A stretch of 64,000 nt of DNA from Escherichia coli (lineage in GTDB: Bacteria > Pseudomonadota > Gammaproteobacteria > Enterobacterales > Enterobacteriaceae). The stretch lies in assembly GCF_003334305.1 (NCBI RefSeq), contig NZ_QOWS01000006.1, one strand, 5' to 3'. Below are positions 21,702 to 21,861 of this stretch, in pieces (the stretch's first letter is position 1; every line of letters starts with the position of its first letter). Position numbers and translations under genes: made by a program. The notes beneath the pieces were generated by a model. It saw nothing but the letters and a program-made list of their open reading frames with translations, searched no databases and was not told the DNA's origin.

Positions 21702-21861
21702 TGATTTTTCTGGTAAAAATTATCCAGAAGATGTTGTAAATCAAGCGCATATAAAAGCGCGGCAACTAAACGTAGAACCTGTCTTATTGAGCTTTCCGGC
21801 GAGAGTTCAATGGGACAGGTTCCAGAAAACTCAACGTTATTAGATAGATAAGGAATAACCC

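What the first reader, a model, noticed from the sequence alone, without database searches (positions are those of the whole stretch)
21702..21861. pdhR-aceE junction: internal promoter region and possible small RNA
The 160-nt gap between pdhR and aceE must carry the aceE-proximal promoter. I have an uncertain recollection that a candidate small RNA (tp2) was reported close to this junction in K-12; I cannot confirm its coordinates or strand from sequence.
Basis: inference. Interest (0 to 1): 0.2.

Follow-up and report, generated by a model that had tools for sequence, protein, structure and literature searches.

The report
aceE leader hairpin, annotated as tp2
The 160-base gap between pdhR and aceE in E. 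coli is an already studied mRNA leader whose conserved 22-base-pair hairpin is cut by RNase III; the "tp2 small RNA" and the "internal aceE promoter" assigned to this spot are most likely by-products of that sense-strand hairpin, so the finding is ordinary.

Summary
pdhR ends at 21701, aceE starts at 21862, and the 160-nt gap is identical to E. coli K-12.

- **Hairpin.** The dominant feature is a hairpin at 21775..21822: 22 uninterrupted pairs on the plus (mRNA) strand.
- **Strand.** Across 74 enterobacterial species it folds better as plus-strand RNA in 70. In 37 distinct 48-nt versions, 98.5% of pair cells are standard pairs on the plus strand against 86.2% on the minus strand (107 G·U cells against 7 A·C cells).
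- **Published work.** It is an RNase III site. Term-seq places plus-strand 3' ends at 21786 and 21813. The second abuts the 5' end at 21814 that was historically called the aceE promoter start.
- **Promoter.** Cappable-seq lists no plus-strand primary start in the gap.
- **Sequence signals.** I found no promoter-like or terminator-like signal on either strand.
- **tp2.** The Δtp2 phenotype is polar on aceEF and is not complemented in trans. Current K-12 RefSeq carries no tp2 feature.

Verdict: already known, low interest.

The parts
20937..21701 (+). [quoted passage not shown]
   Evidence: ORF and sequence; K-12 annotation b0113
21702..21861 (+). pdhR-aceE spacer, which is the aceE leader within the polycistronic mRNA (160 nt)
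   Evidence: identical to K-12
21707..21730 (+). Weak 7-pair hairpin just after the pdhR stop codon, with no U tract. It is not conserved in species with short (119-127 nt) spacers.
   Evidence: centroid fold; spacer lengths and alignment; no terminator-like hit
21745..21760 (+). Small GCGC/GCGC hairpin with an 8-nt loop. Adams 2021 lists + strand position 21754 (K-12 122909) in what appears to be the Rho read-through table.
   Evidence: fold; supplement entry; present in only part of the species
21757..21771 (+). Block GCGCGGCAACTAAAC, conserved across Enterobacteriaceae with minor substitutions. It contains C-99 (21763), the experimentally verified pairing site of the sRNA GlnZ.
   Evidence: alignment of 74 species; compensatory mutation GlnZ G12C / aceE C-99G in Miyakoshi 2022; RIL-seq/MAPS data in Walling 2022
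21775..21822 (+). Main hairpin: 22 uninterrupted pairs (18 Watson-Crick plus 4 G·U) and a 4-nt loop, -32.7 kcal/mol as + strand RNA. It is the RNase III substrate.
   Evidence: covariation; RNase III cleavage in vitro, 5'RACE and rnc-dependent half-life in Gordon 2017
21786..21786 (+). Term-seq RNA 3' end in the 5' arm (K-12 122941). The table marks it as not Rho-dependent.
   Evidence: Adams 2021 supplement
21813..21814 (+). Cut in the 3' arm. The Term-seq 3' end at 21813 (K-12 122968) directly abuts the 5' end G21814 (-48) that was mapped as the 'aceE promoter' start. Relative to the 5'-arm end it is staggered by 3 pairs, within 1 nt of the RNase III 2-nt 3' overhang.
   Evidence: pairing geometry read from the sequence
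21850..21864 (+). aceE Shine-Dalgarno sequence (AAGGAA) and start codon, nearly invariant across species
21746..21859 (-). Match to the Rfam family tp2 (RF02030). It is the reverse complement of the GlnZ site, the hairpin and the aceE ribosome-binding region.
   Evidence: same orientation in 20 of 20 other species tested

Best explanation
The gap is the aceE leader inside the pdhR-aceEF-lpd polycistronic mRNA, and it works at the RNA level on the sense (plus) strand.

Its core is a conserved 22-bp hairpin (21775..21822). RNase III cuts it on both arms, after about 21786 and after 21813. This separates the pdhR part from an aceEF-lpd mRNA that starts with a monophosphate at G21814 (-48). Published work shows the processed mRNA decays faster (about 3 min against about 5 min in an rnc mutant), which lowers pyruvate dehydrogenase activity. 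Upstream of the hairpin, the conserved block 21757..21771 is the pairing site of the nitrogen-controlled sRNA GlnZ, which represses aceE.

Inferred rather than shown:
- The 5' end long annotated as the internal aceE promoter start is the RNase III product, not a transcription start.
- The conservation and structure that led to the 'tp2' call and to the Rfam family on the minus strand are the mirror image of this sense-strand element, not a separate antisense small RNA.
- The small RNAs seen from this locus are mainly sense-strand leader fragments.
For: Structure and strand:
- The plus strand forms 22 uninterrupted pairs, while the minus strand has mismatches at the same places. The hairpin alone is -32.7 against -20.4 kcal/mol.
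- The hairpin is present in all 74 species with a complete spacer. The plus strand is the more stable in 70, and the 4 exceptions differ by only 0.1 kcal/mol.
- In 37 distinct 48-nt hairpins, 98.5% of pair cells are standard pairs on the plus strand against 86.2% on the minus strand. Seven pairs show compensatory changes. There are 107 G·U cells against 7 A·C cells.

Processing (literature):
- RNase III site at K-12 122961, verified in vitro and by 5'RACE. [quoted passage not shown]
- AceE protein is up in rnc14.
- Term-seq plus-strand 3' ends at 21786 and 21813.

Against a promoter:
- The Cappable-seq plus-strand list goes from 122612 to 123175 with nothing in the gap, yet it holds pdhRp (122034) and the lpd promoter (127717).
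- No promoter-like hexamers.
- The promoter was not confirmed by a second method.

Against an independent tp2:
- Δtp2 lowers aceEF mRNA and is not complemented in trans.
- Overexpression gave no phenotype.
- Current K-12 RefSeq has no tp2 feature, although it does show ncRNAs such as sgrS.
- The reported ArcA/FNR dependence of 'Tp2' by qRT-PCR involves the same two regulators that co-regulate the pdhR-aceEF-lpdA operon.
Against: - Rivas et al. 2001 reported a northern signal for tp2. I could not read that paper, so I do not know the strand or size detected.
- The minus-strand part of the Cappable-seq table is not held, so a minus-strand start is not excluded.
- The minus-strand RNA would still fold (-20 kcal/mol).
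- Much of the G·U excess (74 of 107 cells) comes from two nearly invariant basal pairs, which represent few evolutionary events. The independent signal is the apical 33 against 7.
- Gordon et al. themselves kept the promoter as probably real.
- Cappable-seq covered one growth condition, so a conditional (for example sigma-38) promoter is not excluded.
- The two Term-seq ends give a 3-nt rather than the canonical 2-nt stagger.
Confidence: 0.8

Rival explanations
1. Tp2 is a genuine, independently transcribed antisense small RNA. It would start on the minus strand just upstream of the aceE start codon and run through the hairpin. It would act in cis on the aceE leader or in trans on other mRNAs.
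For: - Rfam family RF02030 matches at 103 bits on the minus strand here and in 20 of 20 other species tested.
- Tp2 was reported by Rivas 2001.
- A 2024 study reports differential 'Tp2' expression.
Against: - No promoter-like site is placed for a minus-strand start near 21859, and there is no terminator-like site.
- Wobble pairs favour the other strand: 98.5% against 86.2% paired.
- Every conserved block within the match has a documented sense-strand role: the GlnZ site, the RNase III hairpin and the aceE ribosome-binding site.
- The deletion phenotype is polar and is not complemented in trans.
- Overexpression gives no phenotype.
- tp2 is absent from the current K-12 annotation.
- The Term-seq files searched list no 3' end at K-12 122860-122919 other than the plus-strand read-through entry at 122909.
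Confidence: 0.2
2. The gap holds a real internal sigma-70/sigma-38 promoter that starts aceEF-lpd transcription at G-48 independently of PdhR. It would coincide with the RNase III site.
For: - A 5' end was mapped at -48 by S1 mapping (Spencer & Guest 1985) and by 5'RACE in several strains.
- Gordon et al. considered the promoter probably real.
Against: - There is no Cappable-seq primary start in the gap, while pdhRp and lpdp are listed.
- No hexamer pair is found even at 7 of 12 matches.
- The nearest -10-like hexamer, TTCAAT (21806..21811), ends only 2 nt before the mapped end.
- A Term-seq 3' end lies exactly one base upstream.
- Replacing the spacer with a cassette strongly lowers aceEF mRNA, which fits dependence on upstream transcription. 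That deletion would also remove any promoter, so it is not decisive.
- The promoter was not confirmed by a second method.
Confidence: 0.15
3. The hairpin and its surroundings mainly act as a transcription attenuator or terminator that uncouples pdhR from aceEF (an intrinsic or Rho-dependent stop after pdhR).
For: - Olvera et al. mention a possible terminator at the end of pdhR.
- Adams 2021 lists plus-strand position 122909 (window 21754) with a 2.05 ratio, p 2e-10, in what appears to be the Rho read-through table.
Against: - No U tract follows any hairpin, and the scan finds no terminator-like site in the gap.
- The 3' end at 122941 is scored as not Rho-dependent.
- The hairpin ends are explained by RNase III.
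- Partial Rho termination could coexist with processing, so this is an addition rather than an alternative.
Confidence: 0.15
4. The inverted repeat works at the DNA level, as a protein operator or a cruciform.
For: The 15 basal positions of each arm are almost invariant across Enterobacteriaceae. That is more than pairing alone would require.
Against: - Four of the 22 positions in E. coli are G·T, which is not a DNA palindrome (82% complementary).
- The apical stem varies by compensatory changes that keep RNA pairing.
- The PdhR box lies upstream of pdhR, not here.
- Insertions of 120-180 nt in the loop are tolerated.
Confidence: 0.03

Closest known systems
RNase III processing hairpin in the aceE leader (Gordon et al. 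2017, mBio, PMC5371410)
   Same: It is the same locus and the same sequence. The reported site, K-12 122961, is window 21806, inside the hairpin 21775..21822. The hairpin has 22 pairs, is cut on both arms, and the downstream 5' end is at -48.
   Different: Nothing differs in the element itself. What I add: conservation and covariation across 74 species, the strand asymmetry of the wobble pairs, and the link to the tp2 annotation, which that paper does not mention.
Rfam family tp2, RF02030 (candidate sRNA of Rivas et al. 2001)
   Same: Full-length match on the minus strand well above the gathering score.
   Different: The family is modelled on the strand where the helix is poorer (86.2% against 98.5% of cells paired). 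I find no promoter or terminator for it, and there is no trans-acting phenotype.
RNase III sites in other operon leaders and spacers (rnc, pnp, metY-nusA-infB, sucA leader, pflA-pflB)
   Same: A long hairpin in a 5' UTR or spacer; cleavage changes downstream mRNA stability. As at metY-nusA and pflB, the product mimics a start from an internal promoter.
   Different: Here the same leader also carries an sRNA (GlnZ) site upstream of the cut, so processing removes the sRNA target.
ERIC / IRU repeats in transcribed enterobacterial spacers
   Same: In 16 of 74 species an ERIC-like element sits in the apical loop and lengthens the hairpin to about 170 nt.
   Different: E. coli and this window have the short, ERIC-free form.

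Membership tests
Rfam tp2 (RF02030) | Covariance-model score at or above the gathering threshold (50 bits) | tested here: met
   103.4 bits, full length 1-114, minus strand 21746..21859. Scores of 72-114 bits in 20 other species.
Independent small RNA gene (what tp2 is annotated as) | Its own promoter and terminator on the annotated strand | tested here: not met
   No sigma-70-like site is placed for a minus-strand start near 21859, even at relaxed criteria. No terminator-like site on the minus strand in the gap. These are consensus scans only, so weak or atypical signals would be missed.
Independent small RNA gene (what tp2 is annotated as) | Structure conserved on the annotated strand rather than on its complement | tested here: not met
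   Same 22 pairs: 86.2% of cells paired on the minus strand against 98.5% on the plus strand. 107 G·U-only cells against 7 A·C-only cells.
Independent small RNA gene (what tp2 is annotated as) | A discrete transcript from that strand, and a trans-acting phenotype | not testable with these tools
   Literature only. Δtp2 is polar and not complemented in trans, and overexpression is neutral.
RNase III substrate hairpin | About two helical turns (>= 20 bp) of uninterrupted double-stranded RNA | tested here: met
   22 contiguous pairs on the plus strand, -32.7 kcal/mol.
RNase III substrate hairpin | Staggered cuts on both arms that leave a 2-nt 3' overhang | tested here: inconclusive
   Published ends at 21786 (3'), 21813 (3') and 21814 (5') give a 3-pair stagger, one nucleotide off the canonical value (geometry).
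RNase III substrate hairpin | Cleavage depends on RNase III | not testable with these tools
   Shown in the literature: in vitro cleavage with purified enzyme, and rnc-dependent coverage and half-life. AceE is up in rnc14.
Sigma-70 promoter (aceEp) | -35 and -10 hexamers at 16-18 nt spacing, placed about 7 nt upstream of the mapped start | tested here: not met
   0 sites in 20400..22300 at standard criteria. None is placed for a start at 21814 at relaxed criteria.
Sigma-70 promoter (aceEp) | Triphosphorylated (primary) 5' end | not testable with these tools
   Literature: Cappable-seq lists no plus-strand TSS between 122612 and 123175. That covers one growth condition.
Intrinsic terminator | G+C-rich stem followed by a U tract | tested here: not met
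   No terminator-like site within 21650..21870 on either strand. The hairpin is followed by CAGAAAAC on the plus strand.
ERIC repeat (for the loop insertions in other species) | Sequence similarity to a known ERIC copy | tested here: met
   12 of 16 insertions match the K-12 aceF-lpd ERIC-containing spacer at 70-80% over 45-83 nt, E down to 2e-15. That the K-12 copy is ERIC rests on my memory of the ERIC2 primer sequence.

The most novel reading that the evidence does not exclude
Both classical annotations of this spacer, the internal aceE promoter (TSS at -48) and the small RNA Tp2 (Rfam RF02030), may be artefacts of one sense-strand RNase III hairpin. If so, aceEF expression has no promoter of its own in the gap and depends on transcription entering from pdhR. 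That means Ppdh plus a weak start inside pdhR at K-12 122612. The Rfam family would then need to be re-oriented and re-typed as a cis-regulatory leader element.
Probability: 0.5. Interest if true: 0.3.

Novelty: already known. Interest (0 to 1): 0.15.

Why it matters
Pyruvate dehydrogenase sits at a central metabolic branch point, and this leader helps set how much of it is made. For annotation, the point is practical. A database sRNA family and a textbook internal promoter probably both describe the same RNA-processing hairpin read on the wrong strand or as the wrong kind of 5' end. Studies that delete, quantify or predict targets for 'Tp2' are likely measuring the aceE leader. This corrects existing annotation and does not reveal a new kind of element.

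Tried and rejected
None is present in the gap.
- **Sigma-70 promoter scans.** Standard and relaxed scans on both strands of 21600..21990 found nothing suitably placed.
- **Other Rfam families in 20300..22500.** Only chance-level hits appeared (E 0.8-4).
- **DNA-level palindrome or operator.** Rejected because 4 of the 22 positions are G·T and the apical stem covaries.
- **PdhR binding in the gap.** The only PdhR box near the operon is upstream of pdhR.
- **Papers I could not obtain.** Hershberg 2003 and Thomason 2015 are not held. Conway 2014 has no supplements held. The ArcA, IHF and operon papers that mention pdhR-aceE say nothing specific about the gap.
- **Minus-strand Cappable-seq entries.** The stored file is cut before them.
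- **A frame slip of my own.** I first placed the pdhR start at 20938 and corrected it to 20937.
- **Loop insertions compared with the window.** BLAST found nothing beyond the hairpin arms, because this strain lacks the K-12 ERIC copy. The comparison worked against K-12.

Full report
**1. What is at the coordinates**

pdhR occupies 20937..21701 and aceE occupies 21862..24525, both on the plus strand, so the gap 21702..21861 is 160 nt as described. The window is E. coli. Adding 101155 to a window coordinate gives the K-12 MG1655 coordinate (pdhR 122092..122856, aceE from 123017). The window differs from MG1655 at 36 positions over 6.5 kb, but none lies between 20542 and 22455, so the gap is identical to K-12. 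The 701-nt stretch 21400..22100 around the gap is present in 5424 of 5426 complete E. coli genomes, at 99% identity or more in 5396.

**2. The tp2 recollection**

Rfam's tp2 family (RF02030) matches 21746..21859 on the minus strand at 103.4 bits, against a gathering score of 50. A second, weak match on the plus strand (29.5 bits, 21775..21822) shows that the core of the family is a nearly self-complementary hairpin. The literature places Tp2 in the pdhR-aceE spacer and cites Rivas et al. 2001. The current K-12 RefSeq record has no tp2 feature, although the same record does display ncRNA features such as sgrS.

**3. Anatomy of the gap**

As plus-strand RNA the gap folds to -52.0 kcal/mol (z -5.9). 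As minus-strand RNA it folds to -40.1 (z -3.8).

The dominant element is the hairpin 21775..21822. Its 5' arm is GAACCTGTCTTATTGAGCTTTC, the loop is CGGC, and the 3' arm is GAGAGTTCAATGGGACAGGTTC. On the plus strand it forms 22 uninterrupted pairs, of which 4 are G·U. On the minus strand those four positions become A·C or C·A mismatches. The hairpin alone is -32.7 kcal/mol on the plus strand and -20.4 on the minus strand. It is the second longest close inverted repeat in the 64-kb window.

Upstream lie:
- a weak hairpin just after the pdhR stop codon (21707..21730);
- a small GCGC hairpin (21745..21760);
- the block GCGCGGCAACTAAAC (21757..21771).

Downstream lie the aceE Shine-Dalgarno sequence and the start codon.

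No terminator-like site lies in the gap on either strand. No sigma-70-like promoter was found in 20400..22300 at standard criteria. None was found at relaxed criteria that would give a plus-strand start at 21814 or a minus-strand start near 21859.

**4. Comparative evidence**

A search with PdhR returned 80 loci from Enterobacteriaceae plus two Serratia. Of these, 74 contain the complete spacer.

- All 74 have the hairpin. Its basal 15 positions on each arm are almost invariant, and the apical part is variable.
- The hairpin is more stable as plus-strand RNA in 70 of 74 species. The four exceptions differ by only 0.1 kcal/mol. The mean difference is -10.6 kcal/mol.
- In the 37 distinct 48-nt versions, 98.5% of pair cells are standard pairs on the plus strand and 7 of the 22 pairs show compensatory changes. 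Sliding the partners by 1-3 columns drops pairing to 37-49%.
- The same helix read on the minus strand gives 86.2% paired.
- Counted directly, 107 cells are G·U (compatible with the plus strand only) and 7 are A·C (compatible with the minus strand only). In the variable apical stem alone the count is 33 against 7.

A caveat applies: 74 of the 107 G·U cells come from two nearly invariant basal pairs, so they reflect few evolutionary events.

Rfam tp2 matches all 20 further species tested, always on the strand opposite to pdhR and aceE.

The selection visible in the sequences therefore acts on the sense-strand RNA. Every conserved block inside the tp2 match has a sense-strand explanation.

**5. 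What the literature already shows**

- **RNase III site.** Gordon et al. 2017 found an RNase III site in this spacer at K-12 122961 (window 21806). It ranked first among their novel putative sites. They verified it in vitro and by 5'RACE. The aceEF half-life was about 3 min in wild type and about 5 min in the rnc mutant, and PDH activity was higher in the mutant in early stationary phase. [quoted passage not shown]
- **The mapped 5' end.** Olvera et al. 2009 mapped it to a G 48 nt upstream of the ATG, which is window 21814. They stated that this promoter was one of the few not confirmed by a second method.
- **3' ends.** Adams et al. 2021 (Term-seq) list plus-strand 3' ends at K-12 122941 (window 21786, 5' arm) and 122968 (window 21813, 3' arm). 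The second lies exactly one base before the -48 5' end, which is the signature of an endonucleolytic cut. The two cuts are staggered by three pairs, within one nucleotide of the RNase III rule.
- **Primary starts.** Ettwiller et al. 2016 (Cappable-seq, which captures triphosphate ends only) list plus-strand starts at 122034 (pdhR promoter, score 1290) and 122612 (inside pdhR, score 29). The next are at 123175, 123848 and 125090, followed by 127717, the lpd promoter. None lies in the gap.
- **GlnZ.** Miyakoshi et al. 2022 showed by compensatory mutation that GlnZ pairs at C-99 (window 21763), and that AceE is up in an rnc mutant. Walling et al. [quoted passage not shown]

**6. What the literature says about Tp2 itself**

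- Replacing the spacer (Δtp2) gives a pleiotropic growth defect that mirrors ΔaceF, lowers aceEF mRNA, and is not complemented by Tp2 in trans. The authors warn against interpreting tp2 phenotypes.
- Tp2 overexpression had no effect in a biofilm and motility screen.
- A 2024 study reports lower 'Tp2' under cephalothin and ArcA/FNR dependence, by sRNA-seq and qRT-PCR. The pdhR-aceEF-lpdA operon is itself co-regulated by ArcA and FNR, so that signal may be the sense transcript. This is my inference.
- Neither the RNase III paper nor the GlnZ preprint mentions tp2.

**7. Explanation and rivals**

Best explanation (confidence 0.8): the gap is a sense-strand post-transcriptional control leader. RNase III cuts the hairpin and yields a less stable, monophosphorylated aceEF-lpd mRNA that starts at -48. 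GlnZ pairs upstream of the cut.

Two steps are inferred: that the '-48 promoter' is the processing product, and that tp2 is the mirror image of this element.

Rivals:
- a real antisense Tp2 (0.2);
- a real internal promoter that coincides with the cut (0.15);
- an additional Rho-dependent attenuation after pdhR (0.15, not exclusive);
- a DNA-level operator (0.03).

**8. Novelty and verdict**

Everything essential is published. My addition is the comparative strand test and the link between the Rfam tp2 family and the RNase III hairpin. That is an annotation correction and does not reveal a new kind of element. I rate the finding as already known, with low interest (0.15).

Noticed in passing
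L015, L019, L031, L032, L045, L046, L051, L052, L057, L067-L069, L071-L073, L078 (spacer between pdhR and aceE): In 16 of 74 species a 120-180-nt element sits exactly in the apical loop of the hairpin and lengthens it to about 170 nt, still more stable on the plus strand. Twelve of the 16 match the K-12 aceF-lpd ERIC-like repeat at 70-80% identity. The patchy distribution within Citrobacter and Klebsiella suggests repeated gain or loss.
   Followed up: partly
window 26433..26639 (aceF-lpd spacer): This strain's aceF-lpd spacer is 207 nt, against 324 nt in K-12. The K-12-only segment carries the ERIC-like repeat, and the window has a short unrelated segment instead.
   Followed up: partly
window 21457 (K-12 122612), inside pdhR: Cappable-seq lists a plus-strand primary start inside pdhR, about 405 nt upstream of the aceE ATG (score 29 against 1290 for the pdhR promoter). 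It could give PdhR-independent transcription into aceE. My relaxed scan began at 21600 and did not cover it.
   Followed up: no
window 21754 (K-12 122909), plus strand: Adams 2021 supplementary file 2 lists this position with a ratio of 2.05 and p 2e-10. This looks like the bicyclomycin read-through table, which would mean partial Rho-dependent termination between pdhR and the hairpin.
   Followed up: no
window 20889..20905: A perfect PdhR box, AATTGGTAAGACCAATT, upstream of pdhR. It matches the published site centred at K-12 122052.
   Followed up: yes
window 63077..63148: The longest close inverted repeat in the window: 27-nt arms, 81% complementary, 18 nt apart, G+C-rich (CCCTGTGGGAGAGGGCCGGGGTGAGGG...). 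It is probably a repetitive extragenic element.
   Followed up: no
window 22111..24384, minus strand: A 757-aa open reading frame antisense to aceE. It is most likely a shadow ORF of the codon-biased aceE gene.
   Followed up: no
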